A stretch of DNA of 44,747 nucleotides, taken from sequence record PP069512, one strand, 5' to 3'. A program made the translations under genes and the position numbers. Shown one piece after another: positions 2-44,086 of this stretch (position 1 is the stretch's first letter; the number at the start of each line of letters is the position of its first letter). The notes beneath the pieces were generated by a model. That model did no database searches and was not told the origin of the DNA. It worked only from the letters and a program-made list of their open reading frames with translations. The stretch comes from Escherichia phage TR3.

Positions 2-322
2 GCTTCCGCTCGCCGTGTAATGCAGCGCCTTGTTGATAATACAACCCTGAGCTATGGCGAGTTGTTTACTCGTAACAACCCAGGTGTAACCCTGCGCTTT
101 ATGCAGGTCCTGGATAACTACGATGGTGCTGGCGGTAAAGCTGCGCTGGCGTTTGAAAAGGATCCGCTCAACATGAGCATCGAGATTCCGGAAGTTACAA
201 ACGTTTTACCTGGTCAGCCTCGTGATCTTCACTTCCGCTTCCCTGTAACCTCTAAGGCGACAGGTTTGATTTTATATCGCCCTCTTACAGTGGCAGCTAT
301 CAAAGGAATTACCTTTGCCTAA
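2..322 (+). CDS. major capsid protein, C-terminal segment (5' part lies at 44125..44747 if the genome is circular)
   Basis: Frame open from base 2 to TAA 320-322; leftover nt at window end (2) plus base 1 make one codon, so it joins in frame with the ORF starting at 44125; followed by a hairpin terminator. Confidence 0.55.
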   Translation, partial: ASARRVMQRLVDNTTLSYGELFTRNNPGVTLRFMQVLDNYDGAGGKAALAFEKDPLNMSIEIPEVTNVLPGQPRDLHFRFPVTSKATGLILYRPLTVAAIKGITFA

Positions 323-342
323 TAGCACTAAATGACAAAACA

Positions 343-368
343 ATACCACCGAAAGGTGGTATTTTTGT
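343..368 (+). terminator. intrinsic terminator after capsid gene
   Basis: Hairpin ATACCACC-GAAA-GGTGGTAT followed by TTTTTG. Confidence 0.6.
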
Positions 369-393
369 TTCCATCAAAACAATGGAGGCGAAA

Positions 394-990
394 ATGAAAA
401 TTGAAGAACTACTAACTCACGAAGAGCTAACATCAAGACTTGAATCAGATTCTGAAAGTCCCGTTATGACATGGAAAGTAAAGCCGGGAAATGATAGGTT
501 TACAAATGTATGGAATTCAAGGTACGCCGGAAAGGTTGCTGGAGGTGAATTCACTCCAAACCCAACATGCCCAGAAAGTAAGATGTGGAAGCTATGTATT
601 AAAGTTTCCGGGAAGAAGTTTCACGTTTCAATGCATAAGTTAAAGTGGTTTTATCATCACAGGAGTTGGCCGACAGGTGAGATAGATCACATTGATGGTA
701 ACTCATTAAACAATAGGGTGGAAAACCTAAGGGTTGTTACTCGAAGTGAGAACATGATGAATACGAGCCTATACAAAAGGAACAAGAGTGGATTTAAAGG
801 TGTTAGCTACGATAAATCAAGGGTGAAGTGGAAAGCCCAGATACAAAAGGATTGCGGAGATGTAAGGATGGCTAAAAGGTTTGACACAATTGAAGAGGCT
901 AAGGAGTGTTACGACAGTTGGTGTAAAGAAATATTCGGCGAGTACGGAAACGCCAATGGGGTTCACGAAGGCGATTGTTTAGTGCTATAA
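394..990 (+). CDS. HNH homing endonuclease with AP2-like DNA-binding domain
   Basis: HNH motif HIDGNSLNNRVENLRVVTRSEN; AP2-like segment SGFKGVSYDKSRVKWKAQI; RBS GGAGG 5 nt before ATG 394 (track ORF starts at 382, no RBS). Confidence 0.85.
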   Translation: MKIEELLTHEELTSRLESDSESPVMTWKVKPGNDRFTNVWNSRYAGKVAGGEFTPNPTCPESKMWKLCIKVSGKKFHVSMHKLKWFYHHRSWPTGEIDHIDGNSLNNRVENLRVVTRSENMMNTSLYKRNKSGFKGVSYDKSRVKWKAQIQKDCGDVRMAKRFDTIEEAKECYDSWCKEIFGEYGNANGVHEGDCLVL

Positions 991-3600: not shown

Positions 3601-3644
3601 ATAGCACTTTTTGTTAAAGACGTGTGGCAGGGATTTGCTATTAT
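3601..3644 (+). promoter_or_regulatory. phage promoter box (ATAGCACTTT-TTGTTA, 22-bp spacer, TATTAT)
   Basis: Box at 3601-3616; -10-like TATTAT at 3639-3644; member of repeated motif family. Confidence 0.5.
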
Positions 3645-3683
3645 TACTTTATCGAAACGAGATGGATTATAGAGGTAAGCAAA

Positions 3684-8185: not shown

Positions 8186-8941
8186 ATGGCAAGTGTAAAG
8201 TTTGAAAACCAACTTCAATCACTTTTCCCTGGTGAAGTGGTTACGCTTATTGAGGTTGATGGCAGCAAGTTCGGCGCAAGGGTTTACAGGTTTCATGGGG
8301 AGAATATCTCATACACGCCTGAAGAAATCATGCAAGCCCAGGCATCTGGTCAGCCACTACCAGCCAAGACAATTACATTTCGTGGCGAAGAGTATGGAGC
8401 CAGACCTTTCGGCATTAGCGGCATCAACCTTACATCTGATGGAAAAGCAAACAAGCTCACGCTAACTTTATCAAACGTTGACCAGGCTGTTTCCTCGCTA
8501 ATCCGTCAGTACAATGGCATGGTTCAGGCGAAGGTAACAATCTGGGTTACTATCAGGGATAATATCAATGATGATGGCAGCATTGCAGATGGCGATTATC
8601 GTAAGATGGTTTACTTTATTGAGCGTCCAAAGCAGGTTGACTACAAGACTGCCTCTTTTGAGTTATCTAGCCCAATTGATATGGATGGTATCTATATTCC
8701 AGCGAGGCTAGTCCAGTCAGTATGTTACTTTGCTTCTCGTGGATGGTATCGCAGTGGCAACGGTTGCGATTATGCTGGGAATCGCTACTTCGACAAAGAC
8801 AATAATCCGGTTGATGACCCTGGGTTAGATTTTTGCGCCGGAACTGTTGATGCCTGTAAGTTGAGGTTTGGTGAAAACAACCAGCTATCATTTGGGGGGT
8901 GTGCCTCCGCAAGTTTACAAGCTAAGAATAATCAGAACTAA
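8186..8941 (+). CDS. minor tail protein (lambda gpL-like)
   Basis: 251 aa; C-terminal Cys cluster (C..C..C..C) as in Fe-S containing gpL; gene order. Confidence 0.75.
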   Translation: MASVKFENQLQSLFPGEVVTLIEVDGSKFGARVYRFHGENISYTPEEIMQAQASGQPLPAKTITFRGEEYGARPFGISGINLTSDGKANKLTLTLSNVDQAVSSLIRQYNGMVQAKVTIWVTIRDNINDDGSIADGDYRKMVYFIERPKQVDYKTASFELSSPIDMDGIYIPARLVQSVCYFASRGWYRSGNGCDYAGNRYFDKDNNPVDDPGLDFCAGTVDACKLRFGENNQLSFGGCASASLQAKNNQN

Positions 8942-8983
8942 TAGCATTTTTTGATAAATACAAACTGCCAGGGATGGTATATA
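8941..8983 (+). promoter_or_regulatory. phage promoter box, variant (ATAGCATTTT-TTGATA, about 21-bp spacer, TATATA)
   Basis: Box at 8941-8956 overlapping gpL stop; -10-like at 8978-8983. Confidence 0.4.
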
Positions 8984-9013
8984 GTTACTTTACACAAACG
9001 ATAGGATACAGAA

Positions 9014-15500: not shown

Positions 15501-15583
15501 TTTGTATTCCTTAGTAAGTGTGTTTCGTTTCGATGGAAAGATAATACCGCATCCTTGCGATAAGTGTTTAGCAATTAGTGCTA

Positions 15584-15853
15584 TTAGTGAATATCCTCAC
15601 AGCCAGGAATGGACTTAACATTGTAATGCCGATAAGCGAATATCAAGTTAAGAGCCTGCTCGACCGTGCATTTAAGGGCGCCAGAGATAATAAATGAAGA
15701 CTCAGTGATGTGATTTATTAACTCATTTCTGACAGGGTCGTCATCTGCTAGTAACTCTGCGCGCTTAACAAAAAGAGCGTTGTTTACCAGGATTGTCACA
15801 ACCTTTTCATTGAGCTCTTTCTTCGCTTTTGCAATCTCTTTCTCGTAGTTCAT
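15584..15853 (-). CDS. hypothetical protein (89 aa), first gene of leftward lipoprotein cassette
   Basis: ORF with AAGGCGG-like RBS. Confidence 0.5.
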   Translation of the reverse strand: MNYEKEIAKAKKELNEKVVTILVNNALFVKRAELLADDDPVRNELINHITESSFIISGALKCTVEQALNLIFAYRHYNVKSIPGCEDIH

Positions 15854-15995: not shown

Positions 15996-16685
15996 CTACT
16001 TATCTTTAAGTAGCAACTTGATATCAATTCCTAGATTATTCTCAATCAATCCAGTCAGTGCACCTACCTTTTCCTTAAGTGCGAAGCACTGTGTTTCATA
16101 CTTGAATCTCAACTCCATCTCATCAGAGCGACTTGACCAGCACTGCCGAGCCTCGCACGCTAGCTCATCAATCTTCTTGTCAAGTTCCTTATCTGACAGG
16201 GTGATTTCAGTAATTCGCTGCTCAGCTACGATTCTCTGGATCAAGTGAGCATTCTGCGCTTGCAGGTATCCATTCTTCATTCTTTCCTCTTTAAGTTCAT
16301 CAATGCTTACCATCTGACTGATTACTTCCGCTTGCTTGTTGATGGTGCTTTGCATTTCTTTAAGCTTAGCAAGCACTGCGCGACGAACGAACTTTGATTC
16401 TCTCATCCCAATCAAAAGCATCTGTTCCATATTGAGCACTGGTGAGTTGATTGACTTTCTATAACCTCCTCTACCCTCACTCTTGATTACGAAACTTTCG
16501 TAGTCAAACTCAAACCCTTCAAGCTCATCCTCTATTCTCTCAACAAAGTCATTGTGTCGAACATTGGACTCCCCAGCGATCAACATCGCTGGGTTGATAA
16601 CTTCATTTAAAAACTGATAACTATTCATTTTTACGTCTTCATTAAGTAATGCTAAGTTCATTTTCGTCTCTCTTTTGTTTTTCAT
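15996..16685 (-). CDS. hypothetical regulatory-like protein with coiled-coil C-terminus (start may be 16661)
   Basis: 229-aa ORF downstream of promoter box at 16791-16810; function not recognisable. Confidence 0.55.
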   Translation of the reverse strand: MKNKRETKMNLALLNEDVKMNSYQFLNEVINPAMLIAGESNVRHNDFVERIEDELEGFEFDYESFVIKSEGRGGYRKSINSPVLNMEQMLLIGMRESKFVRRAVLAKLKEMQSTINKQAEVISQMVSIDELKEERMKNGYLQAQNAHLIQRIVAEQRITEITLSDKELDKKIDELACEARQCWSSRSDEMELRFKYETQCFALKEKVGALTGLIENNLGIDIKLLLKDK

Positions 16686-16765
16686 TCCTAAGATTTGAGG
16701 AGTTAACTAAGTTCTTTTCCTCAATTTGAGGAGGAGTTGACAGCACCATTGCCGCCACGCGCCTA

Positions 16766-16810
16766 AATATACCTAAAGATAGCCAGTTGTCTTTAGCAAA
16801 TCGTGCTATT
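16766..16810 (-). promoter_or_regulatory. phage promoter box (minus strand), 22-bp spacer, TATATT
   Basis: rc of 16791-16810 = AATAGCACGATTTGCTAAAG; -10-like rc of 16766-16771. Confidence 0.5.
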
Positions 16811-18460: not shown

Positions 18461-18504
18461 ACAGCACGAATTGCTAAAACAAAACGGGATGACTTAGGTA
18501 TAGT
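18461..18504 (+). promoter_or_regulatory. phage promoter box (ACAGCACGAATTGCTA, 22-bp spacer, TATAGT)
   Basis: Box 18461-18476; -10-like 18499-18504. Confidence 0.5.
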
Positions 18505-18533
18505 TATCCAATCAACAACGAACGAGGTTAAAG

Positions 18534-22271: not shown

Positions 22272-22317
22272 ATAGCACGAATTGCTAAAGTGGATTGTAG
22301 CATCTTTCAGGTATAAA
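22272..22317 (+). promoter_or_regulatory. orphan promoter box on + strand between two leftward genes
   Basis: ATAGCACGAATTGCTAAAG at 22272-22290; TATAAA at 22312-22317 (24-bp spacer); no downstream + strand gene. Confidence 0.35.
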
Positions 22318-23318: not shown

Positions 23319-23792
23319 TTACTCTTTAGCTTTTCGTGCTGCCTCGTTGGCGGCCTTAATCTTACGCCATGATCGACACTCTGGCTTGGTGGCTAATTCA
23401 GCTTCGGTAACCACGCGCAGCATATGACGCTTTTTGCAACGTAGTGTAAGAGGCTTGCCGTTACCGTCGAATTGCAGGTCTGGTCGGCAGAATGTAGCTC
23501 GAAAACCTTCTCCGGTTCGTTTGTAGTAGTTGTGCGACAGCTGAGCACCACGCGCAGAAATCATACCACGATTGAACCATTCTTCTACAGTTTGGGGAGT
23601 TACCTTTAACTGCTTTGCGATGTTTGCCTTTGTTCCGAAGAAATCAAGGAGCATCTCAAGCCGTGCGCGTAACCCTGCCCTTACCTCGTCTTTTAAAACG
23701 TAGTAGCCTGAAGGTCGTTTCCGTTGTTTTTTGTCTTCAGTGCGGATGGTTCCGTTATTACCGTTAGTGGTTCGCTTGTCAACTGCACTCAT
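23319..23792 (-). CDS. basic HTH DNA-binding protein
   Basis: HTH-like segment TKANIAKQLKVTPQTVEEWF; ATG 23792 with RBS GAGGT (track start 23828 lacks RBS). Confidence 0.55.
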   Translation of the reverse strand: MSAVDKRTTNGNNGTIRTEDKKQRKRPSGYYVLKDEVRAGLRARLEMLLDFFGTKANIAKQLKVTPQTVEEWFNRGMISARGAQLSHNYYKRTGEGFRATFCRPDLQFDGNGKPLTLRCKKRHMLRVVTEAELATKPECRSWRKIKAANEAARKAKE

Positions 23793-23804: not shown

Positions 23805-23848
23805 ATAGCATTTTTTGTTAAAAGTCATTCTTATTTGATGGTAGTATT
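23805..23848 (+). promoter_or_regulatory. phage promoter box, variant (ATAGCATTTT-TTGTTA, about 21-bp spacer, TAGTAT)
   Basis: Box 23805-23820 in divergent region upstream of helicase gene. Confidence 0.4.
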
Positions 23849-23893
23849 GTACTCAATTAAACGCTACAAGACAATTTTTATAGGAATTTAGAT

Positions 23894-25888: not shown

Positions 25889-26304
25889 AAGTTACAGACA
25901 AAACTGACTACCTCGAGTTCTATGGCGGCCCGGTGAAGTCATGCCCGAAGGAAGACGACGAACAAATCTTTTGCTCTGATTGGGTTAAGTATAACTATCC
26001 GCAGGTTGTTTACTGGCACACAGTTAATGAATCAATGAAGAGCATTGGTCAGGCAAGGAAAGACCAGGCTAAAGGACTTCTTAAAGGCGTATCAGACTGC
26101 CTATTTCTAATACCTGAGTCATTACGAGGAAGTTATCCATTTGGCGCAATAGAGCTAAAGAGGGCTGGGAAAACACAGGCTAGCCCAGTAAGTGATGAGC
26201 AAAAGTCATTCCTAAAAAGCGTAAGGGAATCAGGCGGTTTCGCAGGAGTTGCCTACGGCAGAGATGGTTTTCTTGCTGCATTCGCAGAGATGATTAGAAA
26301 ATAG
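25885..26304 (+). CDS. VRR-NUC domain nuclease
   Basis: PD-(D/E)XK-like motif VSDCLF...IELKRAGK; ATGA-coupled to helicase gene. Confidence 0.65.
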   Translation: MKVTDKTDYLEFYGGPVKSCPKEDDEQIFCSDWVKYNYPQVVYWHTVNESMKSIGQARKDQAKGLLKGVSDCLFLIPESLRGSYPFGAIELKRAGKTQASPVSDEQKSFLKSVRESGGFAGVAYGRDGFLAAFAEMIRK

Positions 26305-26344
26305 CACGAATTGCTAAAGACGAATTGATGAAGTGGTGTATTAT
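26301..26344 (+). promoter_or_regulatory. phage promoter box (ATAGCACGAATTGCTA, 22-bp spacer, TATTAT)
   Basis: TAG of box is the stop of the VRR-NUC gene; -10-like 26339-26344 in loop of 9-bp inverted repeat. Confidence 0.5.
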
Positions 26345-26382
26345 CACTTCATCGAAACGAAACACACGAAGAGAGAAAGAAA

Positions 26383-27170: not shown

Positions 27171-27422
27171 ATGTTTGGATTAGATTTTCAGCCTGAGCAT
27201 TATGATTTGGTGAGTGGGAGTAGTGGTGCTAAGTTTAGGGCGATACCTATTGCTGATTGGTTTCCTCCTGACTATGCGGATGTTAATGCGAAGACGAAGG
27301 ATGGAAAGTGGGTTCAGATTTATTACTCGCCAGCGTGCGGCAATCTCTGCATGACTGACCTGGACGAGAAATTAGCAATTAGTGCGAATTTAATTGATTA
27401 CTGGCTGAAGGAGGTTGTATGA
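27171..27422 (+). CDS. hypothetical protein (83 aa)
   Basis: RBS AAGGG. Confidence 0.5.
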   Translation: MFGLDFQPEHYDLVSGSSGAKFRAIPIADWFPPDYADVNAKTKDGKWVQIYYSPACGNLCMTDLDEKLAISANLIDYWLKEVV

Positions 27423-27503: not shown

Positions 27504-28637
27504 ATGACAGTAGCAAAGATTACCAACGATCAGCTAATCGAAGAACTTAAAAACGGCATGACTAACAAGGCGATTGCGGAGAAGTACGACATGAACATTC
27601 GCAACGTTGAACTTCGTCGCAGTAAGTTAGCTAAGAGTGGTTTGTTTGGGCATGGCAATGATGGTATCAAGAAGTTAGTGCCGGACGGCTATTTAGTCAA
27701 GGGTACTTCAACCATGATTGATGCGGATGGGAATGAGAAGCTGCGCTGGGTTAAGACGAGCGTTGATAATGAACGCCTTGAAATTATGCTCGAGCAAGCG
27801 CGAGAGGCTTTCTGTTCTGAGTTGCCAAAGTGTGAGGAAGTTAAGCATTCAGGCAAAGATACAAACCCTGACCTAATGACACTGTATCCAATTTTCGACA
27901 TACATATTGGAATGATGGCCCATCGCCACGAGTCTGGTGAAAATTATGACACGGCAACGGCAGAAAAACTAATGGGCTCATACTTTGACCATGCAATATC
28001 AGTTTCGCCAGCTTCAGAAAAGGCAGTCATCCTTGTTGGCGGTGATTATCTCCACTCAGATGGTCTTGAGGCGGTAACTCCAGCTAGTGGCCACTGCCTT
28101 GACCAAGATAGCCGTTACGCTAAGTTAGTCTACATCGCAATTAGATCAATTCGTGGCGCTGTAGAAAAGATGCTTAAAAAGCATAAAAGTGTTGACATTC
28201 AAATTATCGAGGGAAATCATGACCAAAGCGGCATGATCTGGCTTCGGGCTGCGATGGCTGCATTTTATGAAAATGAGAGTCGTGTCTTTGTTGATGTAAG
28301 CCCTGCGATTATGCACAAGACAAGATTTGGCTCAACACTACTTGGCTACACTCATGGTCACACAATGAAGAAAGCGGAAGGTAGACTTGCAGCTATGGCA
28401 ACTGATTACAGGAAAGACTTTGGTGAATGCGAGTTCGTTTATTGCCATTCCGGGCATTTTCACCACGCAACAGTAACAGAGTGCACTCTTGGTATTGACG
28501 AAGTACATCCAGCACTAGCAAGCAAGGATGCGTATGCAGCACGAGGGGGGTGGCGCTCATATCGTCAGGCTGCCGCGATTGTTTATCACAAAGAGTTTGG
28601 CGAGGTTGGTCGTCATATCTATCGACCTGGAATGTAA
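27504..28637 (+). CDS. HTH domain fused to calcineurin-like metallophosphoesterase
   Basis: N-terminal sigma-region-4-like HTH (MTNKAIAEKYDMNIRNVELRRSKL); phosphoesterase motifs DIHIG, GGDYLHSDG, GNHD, GHTH, HSGHFHH; ATG 27504 with RBS AAGGA. Confidence 0.7.
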   Translation: MTVAKITNDQLIEELKNGMTNKAIAEKYDMNIRNVELRRSKLAKSGLFGHGNDGIKKLVPDGYLVKGTSTMIDADGNEKLRWVKTSVDNERLEIMLEQAREAFCSELPKCEEVKHSGKDTNPDLMTLYPIFDIHIGMMAHRHESGENYDTATAEKLMGSYFDHAISVSPASEKAVILVGGDYLHSDGLEAVTPASGHCLDQDSRYAKLVYIAIRSIRGAVEKMLKKHKSVDIQIIEGNHDQSGMIWLRAAMAAFYENESRVFVDVSPAIMHKTRFGSTLLGYTHGHTMKKAEGRLAAMATDYRKDFGECEFVYCHSGHFHHATVTECTLGIDEVHPALASKDAYAARGGWRSYRQAAAIVYHKEFGEVGRHIYRPGM

Positions 28638-28640
28638 TAA

Positions 28641-28684
28641 ATAGCACTTTTTGTTAAGAAATCCCAGAGAAATCTGGGTATATT
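28641..28684 (+). promoter_or_regulatory. phage promoter box (ATAGCACTTT-TTGTTA, 22-bp spacer, TATATT)
   Basis: Spacer holds hairpin CCCAGA-GAAA-TCTGGG. Confidence 0.5.
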
Positions 28685-28714
28685 AATCAAACACAAACGA
28701 GATGGTAAACAAAA

Positions 28715-29263
28715 ATGAAACAACTATATTCAATGATAAAAAAATCAATTAACAATGACTTCAAAGGTAAGCCAGTTTATATTTTTGATTATGACGGAAC
28801 GCTTTCTGACGGGGCTCACAGACTTGATAAGCTCCCAAAAACTGACCCTCACCTTACCGAGTCGTGGATTGAGTTTAACTCACTAAGCAGATTTGATTCT
28901 CCATTTAATGATACGATAAGCGTAATGAATTCGATTTATGATAGCGGCGCATACATAATCATTTTAACAGGAAGGTCTGATCATGTTCTAGATGAGTCAC
29001 TTGATTGGCTTACTAAAAATGGATGCAAATACAACGTAATGGTAATGCGATCAGCTTCGGACAACAGGAAGGATACGATAATTAAAGAGGAATTCTTAAA
29101 TTCAATTGGGATTGAAAGAATTACGGCGGCCTGGGATGATAGCCCGAATGTAATAAATCACTTTAGGTCTCTAGGGATAACCACTTATCAGGTTTGTGAT
29201 TATGGTTATAATGTTCACAGCGGCCTTAAATCTCATGGTGTAGAAAATCTGAATTCTAAATAA
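28715..29263 (+). CDS. HAD-superfamily phosphatase
   Basis: Motif I FDYDGTL; motif II TGR; motif III K...WDDS. Confidence 0.65.
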   Translation: MKQLYSMIKKSINNDFKGKPVYIFDYDGTLSDGAHRLDKLPKTDPHLTESWIEFNSLSRFDSPFNDTISVMNSIYDSGAYIIILTGRSDHVLDESLDWLTKNGCKYNVMVMRSASDNRKDTIIKEEFLNSIGIERITAAWDDSPNVINHFRSLGITTYQVCDYGYNVHSGLKSHGVENLNSK

Positions 29264-29312: not shown

Positions 29313-29867
29313 ATGAAAAAGTTAATCATCCTTAATGGACCCCCAGGTGCTGGAAAAGATACAGTTGCAGATATCATTGTTAAACTTGGAATTTGCAGGG
29401 ATAAGGTTTCTTTCAAATCACCTATGTTTAATGTGGCTAAGAGCATGCTATCAAGCGATGAGTTTGATGGATTTATTAAGAATTACGATGATCGAGAGTA
29501 CAAAGAATCACCACATGAATTTCTTGGTGGAATGACTGTTCGTCAATTTATGATTTGGATTAGCGAATCAGTGATGAAGCCAGTTTTTGGTGATGAAGTT
29601 TTCGGTAAAAGGCTAGCTCAGTCTCTTGGCAATGGTTGCCACATCTGTTCAGATGGTGGATTTGCAAGTGAAATTGAGCCACTAATTGAAAGTGGTGTTG
29701 AGGTTACATTGGTTAGGCTTCATAGACCTGGTTACACTTTCGAAGGAGATAGTAGGTCATACATTAGCGGCCTCTGCGCAAGGGAAATTGATATTGATGT
29801 TATTGAAGGTGATATTAAAATAACTACAGAAAAAGTGATTGATGCAATAAATAGCACGAATCGCTAA
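29313..29867 (+). CDS. P-loop nucleoside-monophosphate-kinase-like protein
   Basis: N-terminal Walker A NGPPGAGKDT, adenylate/dNMP kinase-like. Confidence 0.65.
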   Translation: MKKLIILNGPPGAGKDTVADIIVKLGICRDKVSFKSPMFNVAKSMLSSDEFDGFIKNYDDREYKESPHEFLGGMTVRQFMIWISESVMKPVFGDEVFGKRLAQSLGNGCHICSDGGFASEIEPLIESGVEVTLVRLHRPGYTFEGDSRSYISGLCAREIDIDVIEGDIKITTEKVIDAINSTNR

Positions 29868-29894
29868 ACAATCGCCACAGCAATTAGGTATAAT
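29851..29894 (+). promoter_or_regulatory. phage promoter box (ATAGCACGAATCGCTA, 22-bp spacer, TATAAT)
   Basis: Box overlaps last codons and TAA stop of kinase gene. Confidence 0.5.
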
Positions 29895-29925
29895 CACCAA
29901 ATCGAAAACAACAGAGGATTCAAAA

Positions 29926-31661: not shown

Positions 31662-33245
31662 TCACCCCAACAATCGCGGATTAATGTAAATCTTATCACC
31701 AATCAGGCATGTATAGTTTTTCTCATCAAGCATAGGAACCAAGTGGTCCTTGATGCGAGTCATTACGCCAGCCTGTCCTTCAAAAGGTTTAACTTTGCGT
31801 GCTGCTTCATACAGTGAGCGAACGCCAACAACACCCTTCCCATTCTTACCTTGCTTAATCAGGATATCAACCAGCTTATTCATTTCAGCATTATCACCAG
31901 CATGACCAGCAGCACTAGCGGACGACAAATAAGTCTTGCTTAACTCGTGGAAAATCATAACCGCTTCTTGCATTGTTTCAAGCTCAATCTCTCTTGATTT
32001 CTGCGGACTCGACCCTGCCGGTGCGAACCAGTTGCGAATAACGTGCAATACTGAGGCAATACGGATTGCTTGCTTATCAAATTTACCAAGAGCACCACGT
32101 AACATCGTGTGGGAATATTTACCGCCATCACCAAGATGCGGTTCCATTTCCTGGCGAGCTCGGTTAAGGTAGCGCATGGATGACGCACTTACTGTCAGTT
32201 TCACTTCAACTTCATTCATAATTTCATGAACGAGACGGAAATAGTCTGCTTTAAGACCATCATCAATAGCCTCGTATGTTGAATCGCCATTCTCATCAAC
32301 AAACACGCGGTCTCCAAGAAATGACTTTTCACGCACCAGAAGGAAACGCTCGGAAACACCAATACCACGCGCACCAGCATTCATAATCGCATTGATTGTT
32401 TCATCCTGAGCAATTACAGAGATGCACCCCATTGCCACGAAACTCATGTTGTTTTCTGCGTTAGCGCGGGCAATAGATACGTTACCAGCATCCCACGCTT
32501 TAAGTACAAGCTCGCTGTTCGTTTTCTTGGAACCATCACCGTATGTCATGCCCAATAATGAGTTGACGCTTGTTGCCTCATCCGAGATGACCGCAAAGTT
32601 ACCCTGGCGGTTGTTGATTCGTGCAAGACCTTCTGGCGTAGTATCTGAGACCGGGAATACGATATCGCACAGCTTCTCGAGCTTTTCCTCTAAATCTTCC
32701 TTCTCCTCAAACAGTGAAGCCATCTCAGATGGTGACTTCTCCTGTTTCATTTCTTTTGCTAGCGCAGACAGCTTAGCCATAATCTTTTTGCGGTCACGTT
32801 TACGCACCTCGTTCAAACGCTCAGTCTCAGCAATCATTGGCGCAATTGACAGAGAGTTAATGGCTGACTTACCAGTAGATGGCGGCTGGCTAGTTACCAC
32901 GTAAAGCGATGTTGGCTGCTGGGTTCCGTGATACTCAACAGTAAAGCGCCCTAGCATCGCAGCGGACACACAACCCAAAAAGTGCATGTATGCTGATGAC
33001 TCTGGGAACTGAACTGAGCGAGCAATATTTGCCGAGAGCTTACCAACAACATCAATGTCATTGCCTAGAGATATTACAGGGTACTTGTCATTACCTGCGT
33101 CAATCTCCATAGGTGTTTTCCAGAATGATTGAGACTGCCGATAGCCATTTGCATTAATGGCAACGCGAAGCGGTGGGAGGTTGTCGGTCGCGGCAATCGC
33201 CATAACTTGTTCAACAGATAGTTTATCTTCGTTGAAATCAAACAT
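31662..33245 (-). CDS. P-loop NTPase of unknown role (possible replication/helicase-like)
   Basis: Walker A-like SQPPSTGKSA; 527 aa; RBS GGAGAG; own promoter box. Confidence 0.55.
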   Translation of the reverse strand: MFDFNEDKLSVEQVMAIAATDNLPPLRVAINANGYRQSQSFWKTPMEIDAGNDKYPVISLGNDIDVVGKLSANIARSVQFPESSAYMHFLGCVSAAMLGRFTVEYHGTQQPTSLYVVTSQPPSTGKSAINSLSIAPMIAETERLNEVRKRDRKKIMAKLSALAKEMKQEKSPSEMASLFEEKEDLEEKLEKLCDIVFPVSDTTPEGLARINNRQGNFAVISDEATSVNSLLGMTYGDGSKKTNSELVLKAWDAGNVSIARANAENNMSFVAMGCISVIAQDETINAIMNAGARGIGVSERFLLVREKSFLGDRVFVDENGDSTYEAIDDGLKADYFRLVHEIMNEVEVKLTVSASSMRYLNRARQEMEPHLGDGGKYSHTMLRGALGKFDKQAIRIASVLHVIRNWFAPAGSSPQKSREIELETMQEAVMIFHELSKTYLSSASAAGHAGDNAEMNKLVDILIKQGKNGKGVVGVRSLYEAARKVKPFEGQAGVMTRIKDHLVPMLDEKNYTCLIGDKIYINPRLLG

Positions 33246-33275
33246 TACTTCTCTCCGTATTGTTTCTGAGCGGCC

Positions 33276-33323
33276 ATTATATCAACAGCCGCTTATAATG
33301 CATTATCAATTCGTGCTGCTATT
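33276..33323 (-). promoter_or_regulatory. phage promoter box (minus strand), 22-bp spacer, TATAAT
   Basis: rc of 33304-33322 = ATAGCAGCACGAATTGATA; -10 rc of 33276-33281; TAG of box is stop of upstream gene. Confidence 0.5.
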
Positions 33324-33836: not shown

Positions 33837-33868
33837 GATTACTTGTTCTCTTTCGTTTCGATGAGGAA

Positions 33869-33914
33869 ACTATACAACAAAAGCCCCGAAGGGCTTTAGC
33901 AATTCGTGCTATTT
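33869..33914 (-). promoter_or_regulatory. phage promoter box (minus strand), 22-bp spacer, TATAGT
   Basis: rc of 33895-33914 = AAATAGCACGAATTGCTAAA; spacer contains hairpin AAAGCCC-TTCG-GGGCTTT. Confidence 0.5.
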
Positions 33915-34650: not shown

Positions 34651-34677
34651 ATCTCTCTCCTCGTTGTTGATGGATTC

Positions 34678-34722
34678 ATTATGGTCTCGTTACCAATGTT
34701 TGTCATTAGCAAAAAGTGCTAT
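34678..34722 (-). promoter_or_regulatory. phage promoter box, variant (minus strand), about 23-bp spacer
   Basis: rc of 34707-34722 = ATAGCACTTTTTGCTA; CATAAT-like -10. Confidence 0.4.
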
Positions 34723-34741
34723 TCGTTGGGTTTATGTATTA

Positions 34742-34832
34742 TTGCAGTTATTGCAATGATTCATCTCATTATTGCACATATAGCAATATTGCATCTGATG
34801 CAATGATTTTTTTGATTGTTGCAGAATTTGCA
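34742..34832. repeat. iteron-like array of 7-8 TTGCA boxes
   Basis: TTGCA at 34742, 34751, 34772, 34789, 34819, 34828 and TGCAA at 34799; pairs about 9-10 bp apart, pair-to-pair about 30 bp. Confidence 0.6.
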
Positions 34833-34914
34833 ATTATTGATGTGAGGGTGAATGAATGGTGGATGGACTACCATACAAGTTGATTTTTATTCTGGCCGAG
34901 CCATTTTGCCGCAT

Positions 34915-35070
34915 ACACGTAACCGGCGTAGCGCGATGTAAGCCAACCACTATCGTTACGCGAGTTACGCGAAGCTACGCCTAGACTTACACTATAAGTA
35001 CTTAATATATATATATATCTTCTTTCTATTATTATTATTATTATTATTATTATTGTATGTAAGTCATGTA
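34915..35070. repeat. non-coding control element, copy B (ACACGTAACCG box, GTTACGC repeats, (TA)7 and (ATT)8 microsatellites, TCATGTAACT)
   Basis: Paralogous to 16840..17001. Confidence 0.6.
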
Positions 35071-35324
35071 ACTGGTGCTCTTCTGCTATATATATGTTTT
35101 TTCCTATCAGAGTACATATCTGCAATTTTATGGAAGAAATAGCCAGTATTGGGCAACCCCACCCAATTTATGCGTTACAGGCGTTACCACAAACTACATT
35201 TAGCTATAGCTTGGCTAGGATGCCATTTCGCGTAACCACACCTAAAAGTTACCAAAAATTACACTTGATTACGTGTGTAAGTCGATATATGATGGATTCA
35301 ACCTAAACGAGAGGAGTGATAAAC

Positions 35325-35804
35325 ATGAATGAGAAAGCAACATTGGGTCAAGTGATTCGCGAGATGGTAAAACAGGCTCTAAAATCTGAAGATAAGCAAT
35401 TCAGCGTTTCACTAAGGAAAATTGAAAGCATTATTGGCAGTGAAGATGGTTCCATTAAGAAGCTTAAGAGCTCATACATCTACAACACAACAGCTCGCAT
35501 GCCTGAGTTGAGAGACGCAGGTATGAAGGCGACTCACTACTATGATGAAGATAGCGGCAAAAGCCAATTCGGCGTGACAGAGCTATCAGATGGCAAGAGG
35601 CTGGTTATCAAACTGATCCCTGGAACTGCCAACATTGGTATCAGGAAGAAGACCAATGACGCAATCAAGGTGGAGGCAATAACTGAATTCAAGGCTAAGA
35701 TATCGAAAGTCATGCCAGACCTATCGGAGTATGAAGGTGAAGCGCTCGCAGCAGCAATGAAAGCAATTAAAGATTATCGTTTGATTATTGAGGAGATTAA
35801 ATAA
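35325..35804 (+). CDS. hypothetical protein (159 aa)
   Basis: ATG 35325 with RBS GAGGAG (track start 35316 is GTG). Confidence 0.55.
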   Translation: MNEKATLGQVIREMVKQALKSEDKQFSVSLRKIESIIGSEDGSIKKLKSSYIYNTTARMPELRDAGMKATHYYDEDSGKSQFGVTELSDGKRLVIKLIPGTANIGIRKKTNDAIKVEAITEFKAKISKVMPDLSEYEGEALAAAMKAIKDYRLIIEEIK

Positions 35805-35845: not shown

Positions 35846-36328
35846 ATGAATATCGCCAGGCAAGATGGACTTTCGCCAGTCAGAATCGTAATAAATGCAA
35901 ATGGGTATCGTCAGTCAACGCCATTCTGGGGTTCGATTGATACGTCAGATGTGTACTCAGGTGATGAGCTTGGTGTGCTAATTAAAATCATCAGGAAGAT
36001 GGGAGTTAACGGGAAAGGAGTGGTTGGTGTCAGGTCTGTATATGAAGGAGCTCGAAAGGTTAAGCCTTTTGTTGGGCGTAATGGAGTGATGTTGCTCATC
36101 AAGGACAAGCTAATCCCAGAGCTCGACAAGATGAATGTTACATGTCTAATTGGCGATAAGGTTTATGTTCACCCCGCAATACTCAATGAGTGTTGGGAGC
36201 CTAACTTCAAGGTCTACGAAGGTAAGCATCCTAGTAGACTACCATACCACTTGCGGTACAGCGAGGAAGAGGTTGAGGCGGCGATGGAGTTTTATCGGGA
36301 AGCTAAATTACTCCTGAATGGACAATAG
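35846..36328 (+). CDS. truncated paralog of the P-loop NTPase (N- and C-terminal regions only; amber-interrupted leader at 35804..35839)
   Basis: Residues VINANGYRQS and GKGVVGVRS..KVKPF..CLIGDK match ends of the 31662..33245 protein; upstream in-frame MFNFNDDKLTA-TAG matches that protein's N-terminus MFDFNEDKLSVE. Confidence 0.55.
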   Translation: MNIARQDGLSPVRIVINANGYRQSTPFWGSIDTSDVYSGDELGVLIKIIRKMGVNGKGVVGVRSVYEGARKVKPFVGRNGVMLLIKDKLIPELDKMNVTCLIGDKVYVHPAILNECWEPNFKVYEGKHPSRLPYHLRYSEEEVEAAMEFYREAKLLLNGQ

Positions 36329-36368
36329 CACGAATTGCTAAACAATCGCCGGAGAAATCCGGCATAAT
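36326..36368 (+). promoter_or_regulatory. phage promoter box (ATAGCACGAATTGCTA, 22-bp spacer, CATAAT)
   Basis: TAG of box is stop of upstream gene; spacer holds hairpin GCCGGA-GAAA-TCCGGC. Confidence 0.5.
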
Positions 36369-36399
36369 TACCACATCGACAACACGATGGAGTATAGAG

Positions 36400-36609
36400 A
36401 TGAGAATAAAGATTATTGAAGTTGACATTGCTGATGGTGACGAACTTAGCCTTGCTGATTGCGGTTTCCAGGTTGGTGATATTGTTGATGTTTCCGGTAA
36501 GTATAAAGATGGTAGCTTATCAGTTCAGGCGATTCGTGATACTGATTTAGTAACAATCGGCAACGAGATTAGTTTGCAAGAAGGCGAATACGAGGTAATT
36601 GAAGAATGA
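36400..36609 (+). CDS. hypothetical small highly acidic protein (69 aa)
   Basis: RBS GGAG; Asp/Glu-rich. Confidence 0.5.
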   Translation: MRIKIIEVDIADGDELSLADCGFQVGDIVDVSGKYKDGSLSVQAIRDTDLVTIGNEISLQEGEYEVIEE

Positions 36610-37107: not shown

Positions 37108-37258
37108 CACATGTTTATTCCCGAAATGTGATGAATTTGTTGAGGATTTAATCTACTTCAATGAGAAATACGGTGACACGTTTGAGTGCGATGGCGATAC
37201 AGACGAAGTATTAGCAACTTTTGATAGAGGGCCAGATGTAGACAGCACGAATAGCTAA
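37100..37258 (+). CDS. hypothetical small protein (52 aa, ends DSTNS inside promoter box)
   Basis: Not in track; overlaps previous ORF by 8 nt. Confidence 0.35.
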   Translation: MLNTCLFPKCDEFVEDLIYFNEKYGDTFECDGDTDEVLATFDRGPDVDSTNS

Positions 37259-37285
37259 ACGTGACAGGCATTGATGCCATATAAT
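37242..37285 (+). promoter_or_regulatory. phage promoter box (ACAGCACGAATAGCTA, 22-bp spacer, TATAAT)
   Basis: Spacer holds palindrome GGCATTGATGCC. Confidence 0.5.
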
Positions 37286-37314
37286 CAACCAATCAAACAA
37301 CGAGAGGGCAGAAA

Positions 37315-38376: not shown

Positions 38377-38901
38377 ATGAAAGACGAAAACTTCACCAGC
38401 CAGGCGCAAGAAAAGATTCGCTCTGGCAACTTCAAAGCCATGTACAACAAAAAGTATTCTGACATTACAACTCTGTCCAAAAACCGAATAATGACCCCAG
38501 AGCAGCTATTCGACCTGGCCGTGAAATACTTCTCATGGGCTGAGAGCCAGGCAATCAAGGCAATTGAGACAGCCAGCTTCCAGGGTGTCGTAACCGAGAA
38601 TCTGGTGCACAAGCCACGAGTCTTCACACTAACAGGATTCTGCCTTTACTGCGGTGTTACCCATAGCGCAATAGAGAAATGGAGGAAGTCGGAGGGTTAT
38701 GACGAGGTAATTGCATTCATTGATTCCGTGATTCGCGAGCAGAAGTATCAGCTGGCAGCGTCTGGCATTGTTAACCCTGGCATGATTTCCAAAGAACTTG
38801 GCATCGATAAGCCGCAGGAGATTACTATAAGCAATAACTCTTCAGCTAACGACGTTGGCACGATGAAGGAAGCGCTGGAGTCTGTGATTAGTAAGCTGTA
38901 G
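38377..38901 (+). CDS. terminase small subunit (putative)
   Basis: 174 aa immediately upstream of HNH and terminase large subunit; RBS AAAGGAGG. Confidence 0.55.
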   Translation: MKDENFTSQAQEKIRSGNFKAMYNKKYSDITTLSKNRIMTPEQLFDLAVKYFSWAESQAIKAIETASFQGVVTENLVHKPRVFTLTGFCLYCGVTHSAIEKWRKSEGYDEVIAFIDSVIREQKYQLAASGIVNPGMISKELGIDKPQEITISNNSSANDVGTMKEALESVISKL

Positions 38902-38941
38902 CACTTTTTGTTAAAAGAAGAGGCCCAATCAATGAGATAAT
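38899..38941 (+). promoter_or_regulatory. phage promoter box (TAGCACTTT-TTGTTA, 22-bp spacer, GATAAT)
   Basis: TAG of box is TerS stop; -10-like sits in loop of GGCCCA/TGGGCC inverted repeat. Confidence 0.5.
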
Positions 38942-38969
38942 GGGCCCAACAAACTAGCGAGGTGATCAT

Positions 38970-39476
38970 ATGAATTGGCATGATATTTTTGAATATAGAG
39001 ACGGGCTTTTAATAAGAAAGGTAAAAGTAGCAAATGTATCAAAGGTTGGAGAGGTGGCCGGAAGAGTTGATAAATTTGGCTATGTGATACTAAAGTATAG
39101 ACAAAAAGCATACAGGTGTCACAGGGTGGTGTGGGAGATGCACAATGGAGCAATCCCTAAAGGCATGCACATAGATCACATAAACCAAAATAGAAGTGAC
39201 AATAGAATAGAGAACTTAAGGTTAGTAAGCAATAAAGAGAACTCAAATAACAGATCACTATCATCAAGAAATAAAAGCGGAATAAACGGTGTAAGCTGGT
39301 GCAAAAGAGAGAATAGATGGCTTGTTCAGGCTAGAGAGTTTGGTAAAACAGTCTTCATATGCTACAAGGACACTATAGAGGAGGCTGCATTGGCAAGGTC
39401 GCAGTATGACAAATTGAACGGATATCATGAAAATCATGGCTCTGAAAATAAAGGCTACCTAAATACGAGAGCGTAA
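38970..39476 (+). CDS. HNH homing endonuclease with AP2-like domain (paralog of 394..990)
   Basis: HNH motif HIDHINQNRSDNRIENLRLVSNKEN; AP2-like SGINGVSWCKRENRWLVQ; shared DTIEEA segment with 394..990; RBS GAGGTG. Confidence 0.85.
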   Translation: MNWHDIFEYRDGLLIRKVKVANVSKVGEVAGRVDKFGYVILKYRQKAYRCHRVVWEMHNGAIPKGMHIDHINQNRSDNRIENLRLVSNKENSNNRSLSSRNKSGINGVSWCKRENRWLVQAREFGKTVFICYKDTIEEAALARSQYDKLNGYHENHGSENKGYLNTRA

Positions 39477-44058: not shown

Positions 44059-44086
44059 TTGCGCGGTCCTCAAACTAGTGTATAAT
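44059..44086 (+). promoter_or_regulatory. candidate sigma70 promoter for capsid gene (TTGCGC-N16-TATAAT)
   Basis: Canonical spacing; about 40 nt upstream of capsid ATG. Confidence 0.45.

What the first reader, a model, noticed from the sequence alone, without database searches (positions are those of the whole stretch)
36326..36368. About 15 copies of a conserved dyad promoter box with non-canonical 22-bp spacing to the -10
The box ATAGCAC-N3-TTG(C/T)TA-AA recurs at 3601, 8941, 18461, 22272, 23805, 26301, 28641, 29851, 36326, 37242, 38899 (+ strand) and 16791-16810, 33304-33322, 33895-33914, 34707-34722 (- strand), plus a degenerate copy at 322. In 11 copies a TAnnnT hexamer (TATAAT, TATTAT, TATATT, TATAGT, CATAAT, GATAAT) lies exactly 22 bp past TTGYTA; the other four are at 21-24 bp. 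Sigma70 needs 17 +/- 1 bp, and no -35-like hexamer sits at the canonical position. The box carries a dyad (TAGCA-N5-TGCTA) whose centre falls about 42 bp upstream of the predicted start, the classic class II activator position. Two sequence subfamilies exist (CGAATTGCTA and TTTTTTGTTA). Short GC-rich hairpins often occupy the 22-bp spacer. The HTH proteins at 23319..23792 and 27504..28637 are speculative candidates for the binding factor.
Basis: partly seen in the sequence, partly recalled or inferred. Interest (0 to 1): 0.9.

Follow-up and report, generated by a model that had tools for sequence, protein, structure and literature searches.

The report
Phage promoters carrying host marbox sites
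The repeated box is real, and it matches the binding site ("marbox") of the host stress activators MarA/SoxS/Rob at the same distance from the -10 as in the E. coli micF promoter, so this T1-like phage probably drives most of its genes through a host antibiotic-resistance regulator.

Summary
The window is a T1-like phage (Drexlerviridae, Christensenvirus, 99.8% identical to phage CY1). It holds 18 copies of the box. Sixteen are followed at 22 bp (13 copies) or 21/23 bp (3 copies) by a -10 hexamer, a predicted A start, an A/C-rich leader, a ribosome-binding site and a gene.

The box is already published as the "21-nt direct repeat aaATAGCACnnnTTGnTAAAA" of phage TLS. Its function is listed there as an open question.

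My main result is that the box is a consensus marbox. It matches the published 5'-gcannwwntgnnaaa-3' at 15 of 15 positions. It lies in the forward orientation over the -35 region. Its spacing to the -10 is that of the structurally characterised class II promoter micF (ATGTCA-22 bp-TAGAAT).

A pattern built only from E. coli knowledge finds 13 sites in the window against 0.47 expected. It finds 13-20 per genome in four other Drexlerviridae and 0 in two control phages.

No AraC-type protein is detectable in the phage. The phage's Cro-like regulator has a variable recognition helix, while the box does not vary.

Best reading: these are class II MarA/SoxS/Rob(/RamA)-dependent sigma70 promoters. 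Binding and start sites are untested.

The parts
36325..36375 (+). The copy named in the finding. Marbox ATAGCACGAATTGCTAAACA (36325-36344), spacer hairpin CCGGAgaaaTCCGG, -10 CATAAT (36363-36368), predicted +1 A at 36375. Drives the 69-aa ORF starting at 36400.
   Evidence: 0 mismatches to both marbox consensus forms
322..372 (+). Marbox ATAGCACTAAATGACAAAAC, hairpin CCACCgaaaGGTGG, -10 TATTTT (360-365). Lies upstream of the HNH-AP2 endonuclease gene 382/394-990.
3601..3651 (+). Marbox promoter, -10 TATTAT (3639-3644, with TGc before it), +1 A at 3651. An intrinsic terminator lies just upstream. Located in the tail gene region.
8941..8992 (+). Marbox promoter with 23-bp spacing, -10 TATAGT (8980-8985). 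Drives the ORF starting at 9014.
15534..15584 (-).
16759..16809 (-). Marbox promoter, -10 TATATT (16771-16766). A long leader runs to the KilA-like gene 15996-16685.
18461..18511 (+). Marbox promoter (ACAGCAC, as in micF), -10 TATAGT (18499-18504). Drives the Erf-type recombinase gene at 18534.
22272..22291 (+). Orphan marbox with no -10 and no downstream gene on its strand. It lies between the primase terminator and the tail-fibre gene start, both on the - strand. T1 and Rtp hold a copy at the same place.
23805..23854 (+). Marbox promoter of the helicase gene (23894), 21-bp spacing, -10 TAGTAT (23842-23847). The box lies 13-14 nt from the start codon of the divergent regulator gene.
23846..23874 (-). 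Sigma70-type promoter (TTGTCT-N17-TACAAT) of the Cro-like regulator gene. Its -10 overlaps the -10 of the helicase promoter on the other strand. T1 has TTGAAT-N17-TATAAT here, and TLS has the published promoter P57.
   Evidence: read from the sequence
26301..26351 (+). Marbox promoter, -10 TATTAT (26339-26344) sitting in the loop of the inverted repeat GATGAAGTG/CACTTCATC, +1 A at 26351.
27369..27388 (-). Box look-alike inside a gene (TCGCACTAATTGCTA) with no -10. Probably not functional.
28641..28691 (+). Marbox promoter, hairpin CCCAGAgaaaTCTGGG abutting the -10 TATATT (28679-28684). Drives the polynucleotide kinase/phosphatase gene at 28715.
29851..29901 (+). Marbox promoter, -10 TATAAT (29889-29894), +1 A at 29901.
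33269..33319 (-). Degenerate marbox promoter, -10 TATAAT (33281-33276) in the loop of GCGGC/GCCGC. Drives the DUF3987 helicase gene 31662-33245.
33862..33912 (-). Marbox promoter whose 22-bp spacer holds a terminator-like hairpin (AAGCCCttcgGGGCTT followed by TTTGTTG), -10 TATAGT (33874-33869).
34671..34722 (-). Marbox promoter with 23-bp spacing, -10 CATAAT (34683-34678).
37242..37292 (+). Marbox promoter, -10 TATAAT (37280-37285), +1 A at 37292.
38898..38948 (+). Marbox promoter, -10 GATAAT (38936-38941) in the loop of GGCCC/GGGCC. Drives the HNH-AP2 endonuclease gene 38970-39476. The spacer is identical at Rtp 6317.
35265..35293 (+). Marbox-free sigma70-type promoter TTGATT-N17-TATGAT before the first early gene (DUF7174, 35316-35804). 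Corresponds in position to TLS P01.
44059..44086 (+). Marbox-free sigma70-type promoter TTGCGC-N16-TATAAT before the major capsid gene.
   Evidence: read from the sequence
23319..23792 (-). Family-wide Cro-like single-HTH regulator (T1 gp23, Rtp52). Rival candidate for the box-binding factor.

Best explanation
Each box is a marbox, the asymmetric 20-bp site bound by the monomeric two-HTH activators MarA, SoxS and Rob (and RamA in Klebsiella, Salmonella and Enterobacter).

The marbox lies in the forward orientation at about -50 to -31. It overlaps the place where a -35 hexamer would be. Its AAA is 20 bp upstream of a sigma70 -10 hexamer that often carries G-14 or TG.

The host activator bound there would recruit host RNA polymerase through sigma region 4 and alpha-CTD, as in class II promoters such as micF and fumC. 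Transcription would start at a conserved A 7 nt past the -10 and give mRNAs with a common A/C-rich leader.

About 16 such promoters drive early, replication, lysis and tail genes in this phage. A few genes use ordinary -35/-10 promoters: the first early gene, the Cro-like regulator and the capsid gene. Hairpins inside the promoter end or stabilise the upstream transcript.

Shown here: the motif, its spacing, its orientation, its identity to the marbox consensus, its geometry matching micF and fumC, its conservation across the family, and the absence of a detectable phage AraC-type protein.

Inferred: that MarA, SoxS or Rob actually bind; that they activate; where transcription starts; and which of the three matters. 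Rob is my guess because, from memory, it is abundant without stress.
For: (1) Sequence identity to the marbox.
- The published marbox 5'-gcannwwntgnnaaa-3' (PMC12052159) matches the phage consensus GCAC-n-W-W-T-T-G-Y-T-AAA at 15 of 15 positions. The two W positions hold almost only A or T in 71 modules.
- MarA helix 3 reads CGTG and helix 6 reads TTT seven bases apart (PMC8811837). The phage has CAC(G/T)-N7-AAA.
- Every position of the phage 20-mer ATAGCACGTTTTGCTAAAAC is found in one or both of the two crystallised marboxes: micF ACAGCACTGAATGTCAAAAC (PMC8279559) and mar ATGCCACGTTTTGCTAAATC.

(2) Geometry.
- Class II means a forward marbox over the -35, centred between -36 and -55. The phage 15-mer is centred at -40.
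- micF reads ATGTCA-22 bp-TAGAAT, the same spacing as the phage, with AAAACA in the -35 region as in the phage. RamA binds micF at about -41.
- In fumC, by my reading of the -10 as AATAAT from the published -39 centre, 19 nt separate AAA from the -10, against 20 in the phage.

(3) Enrichment, using patterns not derived from the phage.
- Perfect 15-mer: 12 against 0.95 expected.
- Marbox + N20 + TANNNT with up to 1 mismatch: 13 against 0.47 expected.
- The same composite gives 13-20 per genome in T1, Rtp, TLS and Shelby, and 0 in T7 and in a lambdoid Enterobacter phage (the perfect-match version is).

(4) Asymmetry and orientation.
- Information content is not mirror-symmetric.
- The A-box GCAC is invariant. 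This fits published data that A-box mutations cost 7- to 100-fold in binding and B-box mutations 2- to 4-fold.
- All promoter copies point with their gene.

(5) The box does not vary across subfamilies that infect Escherichia, Klebsiella and Erwinia, nor in a divergent metagenomic relative. That fits a conserved host reader.

(6) No phage AraC-type protein was found.
- phmmer with MarA against all six-frame ORFs of five phages gives a best E-value of 0.71.
- Pfam scans of 20 window proteins give no AraC-type HTH match.
Against: - There is no binding, start-site or genetic evidence at all.
- Two positions that the marbox consensus leaves free (A-48 and T-40) are nearly invariant in the phage. 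With the rest they make a 5-bp dyad, TAGCA-N5-TGCTA.
- The box is the only conserved element in the regulator-helicase intergenic region of seven phages. It sits 13-14 nt from the regulator's start codon, a typical autoregulation position.
- Reverse-oriented copies lie just upstream of some genes: the tail-fibre gene here, and capsid and tail genes in T1 and TLS. Class II activation does not explain them.
- From memory, not checked here: MarA and SoxS are scarce without stress, and most Rob is held inactive.
- From memory, not checked here: a Keio-collection screen with a T1-like phage (Piya et al. 2020) did not report rob, marA or soxS. The three may be redundant.
Confidence: 0.65

Rival explanations
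1. A phage-encoded DNA-binding protein reads the box and activates these promoters from about -42, as lambda cI does at PRM. It also represses where the box lies downstream of a promoter. The candidates are the family-wide Cro-like regulator (23319-23792) and the winged-helix-like first early protein DUF7174 (35316-35804). On this view the likeness to a marbox is coincidence or mimicry.
For: - The regulator is present in 824 phage records, essentially all Drexlerviridae.
- It has its own sigma70-type promoter, and the box lies 13-14 nt from its start codon in seven phages (TLS P57).
- The box contains a 5-bp dyad.
- Reverse-oriented boxes lie just upstream of some genes: the tail-fibre gene here, with copies at the same place in T1 and Rtp.
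- DUF7174 is the first gene behind a canonical promoter. Its model shows a winged-helix-like N-terminal half.
Against: - The regulator is a single Cro-like HTH (Foldseek probability 1.0 to Xfaso-1 and N15 Cro). Such proteins read symmetric sites, but the box flanks are asymmetric.
- Its recognition helix varies (TPQTVEEW, NLKTVWGW, DVCRLTNAY and others) among phages whose box is the same.
- DUF7174 has no significant structural match; the best E-value is 0.19.
- This reading leaves unexplained the 15 of 15 match to the marbox and the spacing identical to micF.
Confidence: 0.2
2. No transcription factor is needed. The promoters are extended -10 type sigma70 promoters, and the box acts directly on RNA polymerase as an UP-like element or a displaced -35 surrogate.
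For: - G-14 occurs in 57 of 71 modules and T-15 in 32 of 71.
- The T-type box has a T-tract followed by AAAA.
- The TLS authors suggested UP elements.
Against: - The invariant bases are G and C (GCAC, TTG), not an A/T tract. The GAA-type box has no T-tract.
- From general knowledge of sigma70, a 22-bp gap is outside the range of region 4.
- Only 5 of the 16 window copies carry the full TG (read).
Confidence: 0.07
3. The box works mainly as a transcription stop or an RNA-level signal rather than as a promoter element. Possibilities are a stoperator-like roadblock, part of a terminator, or a processing site at the 3' end of the upstream message.
For: - Boxes often start at or next to the stop codon of the upstream gene.
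- Hairpins, some annotated as terminators in T1, lie just after the box.
- The TLS authors mention stoperators.
Against: - The exact 22-bp register to a -10 hexamer holds whether or not a hairpin is present and wherever the hairpin sits.
- The box itself cannot form a stable hairpin.
- From general knowledge, these phages are virulent and have no prophage repressor.
- This reading does not explain the conserved +1 and leader.
Confidence: 0.05

Closest known systems
E. coli micF promoter (class II MarA/SoxS/Rob/RamA-dependent; Rob-micF crystal structure 1D5Y; RamA-RNAP-micF cryo-EM)
   Same: - Forward marbox over the -35 region.
- ACAGCAC A-box and (C/T)AAAAC B-box.
- ATGTCA-22 bp-TAGAAT, the same spacing as in the phage.
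- AAAACA where a -35 hexamer would be.
   Different: - The phage sites are closer to consensus.
- They come in 13-20 copies per 45-50 kb genome.
- They often carry G-14 or TG.
- They have hairpins inside the promoter and share a conserved leader.
- Binding of any activator is untested.
21-nt direct repeats of phage TLS, also seen in T1, Rtp and Rogue1 (PMC11447400)
   Same: This is the same element. Consensus aaATAGCACnnnTTGnTAAAA, intergenic, pointing with transcription, about 76 nt before start codons, with A, T and G sub-types. In the window the box-to-ATG distance is 71-88 nt.
   Different: - That paper reports no fixed distance to a -10, no link to the marbox, and lists the function as an open question.
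- It proposes stoperators, enhancer sites or UP elements.
E. coli mar and fumC marboxes
   Same: - The mar site ATGCCACGTTTTGCTAAATC shares 17 of 20 bases with the Shelby box ATAGCACGTTTTGCTAAAAC.
- fumC is class II, with 19 nt from AAA to the -10 and a terminator just upstream of the marbox, as at window 3601.
   Different: The mar site is class I, that is, in reverse orientation and further upstream.
Lambda cI at OR2/PRM and Mu Mor/C-dependent promoters (from memory)
   Same: A phage promoter with a poor or absent -35 is activated from a site centred near -42 to -43.5.
   Different: Those activators are phage-encoded dimers on symmetric sites. Here the site is asymmetric and matches a host monomeric activator.
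T4 middle promoters (MotA box, from memory)
   Same: Host sigma70 -10 plus a phage-specific upstream box (TGCTTtA) that replaces the -35.
   Different: - The MotA box is centred at -30, 11-13 bp from the -10.
- It needs phage MotA and AsiA.
- Here the box ends 22 bp from the -10.

Membership tests
Class II MarA/SoxS/Rob (marbox) promoters | Match to the marbox consensus (gcannwwntgnnaaa; CAC(G/T)-N7-AAA) | tested here: met
   12 perfect matches against 0.95 expected. The family logo agrees at 15 of 15 positions, including the two W positions.
Class II MarA/SoxS/Rob (marbox) promoters | Asymmetric site in the forward orientation relative to transcription | tested here: met
   All 16 promoter copies read GCA...AAA on the coding strand of the downstream gene.
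Class II MarA/SoxS/Rob (marbox) promoters | Marbox overlaps the -35 region, centred between -36 and -55, at the same distance from the -10 as in known class II promoters | tested here: met
   The centre is at -40 relative to the predicted start. There are 20 nt from AAA to the -10, as in micF; fumC has 19. The start sites are predicted, not mapped.
Class II MarA/SoxS/Rob (marbox) promoters | Sigma70 -10 element downstream | tested here: met
   TATaaT with A-11 and T-7 fixed by the selection criterion and T-12 in 61 of 71 modules.
Class II MarA/SoxS/Rob (marbox) promoters | Bound by MarA, SoxS or Rob protein | not testable with these tools
   Needs EMSA, footprinting or ChIP.
Class II MarA/SoxS/Rob (marbox) promoters | Transcription depends on the activator | not testable with these tools
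   Needs reporter assays or in vitro transcription, and a marA soxS rob triple mutant.
Drexlerviridae 21-nt intergenic direct repeats (TLS DR1-18) | Consensus aaATAGCACnnnTTGnTAAAA, intergenic, pointing with transcription, about 76 nt before the start codon | tested here: met
   The flanks are direct repeats of A, not inverted. C-44 and T-40 are not complementary. G-47 is invariant against Y at -37.
Sigma54 promoters | GG and GC elements 10 bp apart (TGGCAC-N5-TTGC) | tested here: not met
   The box has AG and is 2 bp shorter. The sigma54 pattern is not enriched: 4 against 3.4 expected.
T4 MotA-dependent middle promoters | Box centred at -30, 11-13 bp from the -10 | tested here: not met
   The box ends 22 bp from the -10. 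The definition is from memory.
UP elements | A/T-tract sequence between -40 and -60 read by alpha-CTD | tested here: not met
   The invariant positions are G and C (GCAC, TTG). The definition is from memory.
Mycobacteriophage L5 stoperators | Asymmetric repressor sites inside transcription units of a temperate phage, with no fixed relation to a -10 | tested here: not met
   The register to the -10 is fixed at 22 bp. No prophage-type repressor or integrase is annotated.

The most novel reading that the evidence does not exclude
A whole family of virulent phages (Drexlerviridae, including the Klebsiella weberviruses) has no activator of its own for most of its genes. Instead it wires 13-20 promoters per genome to the host's antibiotic- and stress-response activators MarA, SoxS, Rob and RamA.

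If so, phage gene expression would rise in exactly those cells that have switched on multidrug resistance: marR, ramR or soxR mutants, and cells exposed to bile, salicylate or oxidants. Replicating phage DNA could also soak up these activators.

The promoters would further be built with the terminator of the previous unit inside them, or with the -10 held in a hairpin loop.
Probability: 0.5. Interest if true: 0.85.

Novelty: new variant of a known kind. Interest (0 to 1): 0.75.

Why it matters
The T1-like phages are a classic group, yet how they are transcribed is not understood. The 2024 re-annotation of TLS found only three sigma70-like promoters and asks outright what the 21-base repeats do.

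Reading them as class II marboxes turns that question into simple experiments: gel shifts with MarA or Rob, reporter fusions in a marA soxS rob mutant, and 5'-end mapping.

If it holds, it would be an unusually clear case of a lytic phage depending on a host stress regulon for most of its promoters.

It would also have practical weight. Mutants that over-produce MarA or RamA and resist many antibiotics should be especially good hosts for these phages, several of which are candidates for therapy against Klebsiella and E. coli. Loss of the regulators would trade phage resistance for drug sensitivity.

The promoters are also compact, portable parts that should respond to stress.

Tried and rejected
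- **Sigma70 with TTGYTA as a -35 and a long spacer.** No hexamer sits at 17 bp, and 22 bp is out of range.
- **Sigma54.** The spacing is wrong, the GG is missing, and the pattern is not enriched.
- **UP element, MotA box, stoperator.** See the membership tests.
- **Lrp (YAGHAWATTWTDCTR) and IHF consensus.** Both recalled from memory. Lrp matches 13 of 15 but fails at the invariant C-44 and has no such geometry. IHF does not fit. Neither was checked further.
- **A phage MarA-like protein.** phmmer with MarA against all six-frame ORFs of five phages found nothing. Pfam on 20 window proteins found nothing.
- **DUF7174.** The model has pLDDT 71.6, a winged-helix-like N-terminal half and no significant PDB match. 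Inconclusive.
- **The Cro-like regulator.** A good model (pLDDT 86.5) with a single HTH and a variable recognition helix.
- **A host-contrast test**, looking for T1-like phages of hosts that lack these activators. The collection holds no such relatives: portal homologs fall straight from about 50% identity (all from Enterobacterales hosts, apart from records labelled Campylobacter that are probably mis-hosted) to a lambdoid phage at 40% and unrelated phages at about 25%.
- **Literature searches** for mapped start sites in T1-like phages, or for any link between marboxes and these phages, found nothing. The library lacks most subscription journals, including the 2004 T1 genome paper.
- **Searching papers for the motif string itself** was useless.
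Full report
**What the window is.** The window is 99.8% identical over 12 kb to Escherichia phage CY1 (Drexlerviridae, Braunvirinae, Christensenvirus). It is closely related to phages TR2, TR1 and Rao1. It is therefore a virulent T1-like siphovirus. Its gene order matches T1, Rtp and TLS.

- TAGCAC-N3-TTGYTA with up to one mismatch occurs 14 times against 0.55 expected. With two mismatches and inspection of the flanks there are 18 copies.
- Sixteen copies are followed by a -10-like hexamer: 13 at 22 bp, 2 at 23 bp and 1 at 21 bp. After the hexamer comes a conserved A seven bases on, an A/C-rich leader, a Shine-Dalgarno sequence and a start codon 71-88 nt from the box.
- Two copies are not promoters. 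The copy at 22272-22291 has no -10 and no gene on its strand. The copy at 27369-27388 lies inside a gene.

**The rule holds across the family.** In the window plus T1, Rtp, TLS and Klebsiella phage Shelby, 64 of 84 forward boxes have the hexamer at exactly 22 bp. Other offsets hold 0-6 each.

A logo of 71 modules shows:
- aAATAGCAC(t/g)(a/t)(a/t)TTG(c/t)TAAAa at -52 to -32.
- No -35 hexamer.
- G at -14 in 57 modules and T at -15 in 32, which resembles an extended -10.
- TATaaT at -12 to -7.
- cc.c, then A at +1 in 60 modules.
- A leader AtcgAAa..aaa.

**What was already known.** The 2024 re-annotation of phage TLS (PMC11447400) describes this element.
- It is reported as a 21-nt direct repeat, aaATAGCACnnnTTGnTAAAA, with 18 intergenic copies pointing with transcription, about 76 nt before start codons, in A, T and G sub-types.
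- The authors say similar repeats occur in T1, Rtp and Rogue1.
- They found only three sigma70-like promoters in TLS.
- They propose stoperators, enhancer sites or UP elements.
- They list the function of the repeats among the open questions for T1-like phages.
- They do not report the fixed distance to a -10.

So the box is known.

**What the box is.** It matches the marbox, the site for the monomeric two-HTH activators MarA, SoxS and Rob.
- The marbox used by the Grainger laboratory is 5'-gcannwwntgnnaaa-3', non-palindromic and oriented (PMC12052159). The phage consensus GCAC-n-W-W-T-T-G-Y-T-AAA agrees at all 15 positions. The two W positions hold almost only A or T in 71 modules.
- MarA helix 3 reads CGTG and helix 6 reads TTT seven bases apart (PMC8811837). 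The phage has CAC(G/T)-N7-AAA.
- Each position of the phage 20-mer is found in one or both crystallised marboxes: micF ACAGCACTGAATGTCAAAAC and mar ATGCCACGTTTTGCTAAATC.
- The two phage sub-types echo these two. CACG..TTGCTAAA resembles mar, and CACT with a T at the Y position resembles micF.
- From memory, the older 20-bp consensus (Martin et al. 1999) is AYnGCACnnWnnRYYAAAYn. With it the window has 12 sites at up to one mismatch against 1.3 expected.

**Geometry.**
- Class II marbox promoters have a forward marbox over the -35 hexamer, centred between -36 and -55.
- I fetched the E. coli micF promoter. It reads cAGCACTGAATGTCAAAAcaaaaccttcactcgcaacTAGAATaactcccG. AAAACA sits where a -35 would be, as in the phage.
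- RamA binds micF at about -41 in a cryo-EM complex. The phage 15-mer is centred at -40 from the predicted start.
- In fumC, by my reading of the -10 as AATAAT from the published -39 centre, 19 nt separate AAA from the -10, against 20 in the phage.

**Enrichment with E. coli-derived patterns only.**
- Perfect 15-mer: 12 against 0.95 expected.
- 15-mer + N20 + TANNNT at up to one mismatch: 13 against 0.47 expected.
- The composite pattern gives 18 in T1, 16 in Rtp, 20 in TLS, 13 in Shelby and 4 in 20 kb of Erwinia phage Snitter. A divergent metagenomic relative also has marbox-plus-hexamer modules.
- The composite gives 0 in T7 and 0 in a lambdoid Enterobacter phage that shares a T1-like portal.

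**Host factor or phage factor?** Four lines favour a host factor.

1. The site is asymmetric.
   - The conserved flanks are A-51 A-50 on the left and A-34 A-33 on the right, which are direct rather than inverted.
   - C-44 faces T-40.
   - G-47 is invariant while its mirror position -37 is C or T.
   - A symmetric dimer would not give this pattern. The marbox does.
2. The box does not vary between subfamilies whose genomes are highly diverged and whose hosts are Escherichia, Klebsiella and Erwinia.
3. No AraC-type protein is detectable.
   - Its model shows a single Cro-like HTH (pLDDT 86.5; Foldseek probability 1.0 to Xfaso-1 and N15 Cro).
   - Its recognition helix varies widely among phages that share the same box.
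   - Its most conserved parts lie outside the HTH.

**What keeps the phage-factor rival alive.**
- The box is the only conserved element between the regulator and helicase genes in seven phages, and it lies 13-14 nt from the regulator's start codon.
- The regulator has its own canonical promoter, whose -10 overlaps the -10 of the helicase promoter on the other strand (TLS P57).
- A-48 and T-40 are free in the marbox consensus but fixed in the phage. They complete a 5-bp dyad.
- Reverse-oriented boxes lie just upstream of the tail-fibre gene here, and of capsid and tail genes in T1 and TLS.
- DUF7174, the first early gene behind a canonical promoter (35265-35293), has a winged-helix-like model but no significant structural match.

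**Other anatomy.** Of 71 modules, 54 hold a hairpin between the marbox and +1.
- In 16 modules a short G+C-rich hairpin, often with a GAAA loop, abuts the -10. Together with the T-rich -10 it looks like an intrinsic terminator. The T1 record annotates several of these as terminators.
- In 38 modules an inverted repeat flanks the -10, so that the hexamer lies in the loop.
- mRNAs that start at +1 do not contain these hairpins. They must therefore act on read-through RNA from the upstream unit, or on the DNA. I could not decide which.

**Limits.**
- Start sites are predicted from the -10 and the conserved A, not mapped.
- No binding or genetic data exist in the library I could search.
- The searches did not cover most subscription journals.
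- Statements marked 'from memory' were not verified. These are the Martin 1999 consensus string, Rob abundance and sequestration, the Keio screen with phage LL5, lambda cI and Mu Mor geometry, the T4 MotA box, and the Lrp and IHF consensus sequences.

**Verdict.** The best-supported explanation, at about 0.65, is that these are class II MarA/SoxS/Rob-type promoters that use a host activator.

Noticed in passing
window 26320-26351, 33269-33300, 38917-38948, 18480-18511; also T1, TLS and Shelby (L002, L004, L005): In 38 of 71 promoter modules an inverted repeat flanks the -10 hexamer, with arms at about -24..-18 and -6..-1, so the -10 sits in a hairpin loop. mRNAs that start at +1 would not contain it. 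Its role is unexplained; it could be 3'-end formation of the upstream transcript, a processing site, or an aid to DNA melting.
   Followed up: partly
window 28660-28684, 36344-36368, 341-365, 33869-33893 (- strand): In 16 of 71 modules a short G+C-rich hairpin, often with a GAAA loop, abuts the -10. Together with the T-rich -10 and discriminator it looks like an intrinsic terminator placed inside the next promoter. The T1 record annotates such sites as terminators.
   Followed up: partly
window, predicted +1 positions such as 36375-36386, 26351-26362, 3651-3662: The leader is conserved from the predicted start: A-U-C-G-A-A-A-C-G-A, A/C-rich and poor in G, followed by the Shine-Dalgarno sequence. 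The marbox-free promoter at 35265-35293 has a similar AAACGAGAGG. It may be a translation or stability signal.
   Followed up: no
window 22272-22291; L002 (T1) 34903, 15085, 18849; L004 (TLS) 15041: Some boxes point against the neighbouring genes and lie just upstream of a gene start: the tail-fibre gene here, and major capsid and tail chaperone genes in T1 and TLS. In T1 the tail-fibre copy falls at about +1..+15 of a TTGCAA-N17-TAAAAT promoter, an operator-like position.
   Followed up: partly
window 34722-35300: A 580-bp non-coding stretch lies between divergent early genes. It holds two 47-nt tandem units with eight (A)TTGCA motifs (34740-34833), an (ATT)n run (35029-35054) and a (TA)n run (35004-35018). 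It may be an origin, a packaging site or a regulatory region.
   Followed up: partly
window 382-990 and 38970-39476; L003 (Rtp) 6317-6864: Two HNH-AP2 homing-endonuclease genes each sit directly behind their own marbox promoter. The promoter before 38970 has a spacer identical to the one before Rtp gene 20, so the mobile gene seems to travel with its promoter.
   Followed up: partly
window 23319-23792 (- strand): In the Cro-like regulator the most conserved parts are not the HTH. They are a basic N-terminal stretch modelled with low confidence (DKRxxNGNNGxxRGxDxKxRK) and a C-terminal FCRPDLxFDxNGKPL..C motif. Its sigma70-type promoter and the helicase marbox promoter share one -10 region on opposite strands.
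   Followed up: partly
window 35316-35804: The first early gene (Pfam DUF7174) lies behind a canonical promoter. Its model shows a winged-helix-like N-terminal half and two long C-terminal helices. One database source calls a homolog a 'predicted transcriptional regulator'. No significant PDB match was found.
   Followed up: partly
phage collection records MG065685, MG065680, MG065669 and others: About 20 GenBank records named 'Campylobacter phage' with host Campylobacter jejuni encode T1-like regulator and portal proteins at roughly 58-67% identity. They look like Drexlerviridae and are probably mis-hosted.
   Followed up: no
window 44059-44086: The major capsid gene here has a marbox-free TTGCGC-N16-TATAAT promoter after a bidirectional terminator. 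T1, TLS and Shelby carry a reverse-oriented box at this place.
   Followed up: no
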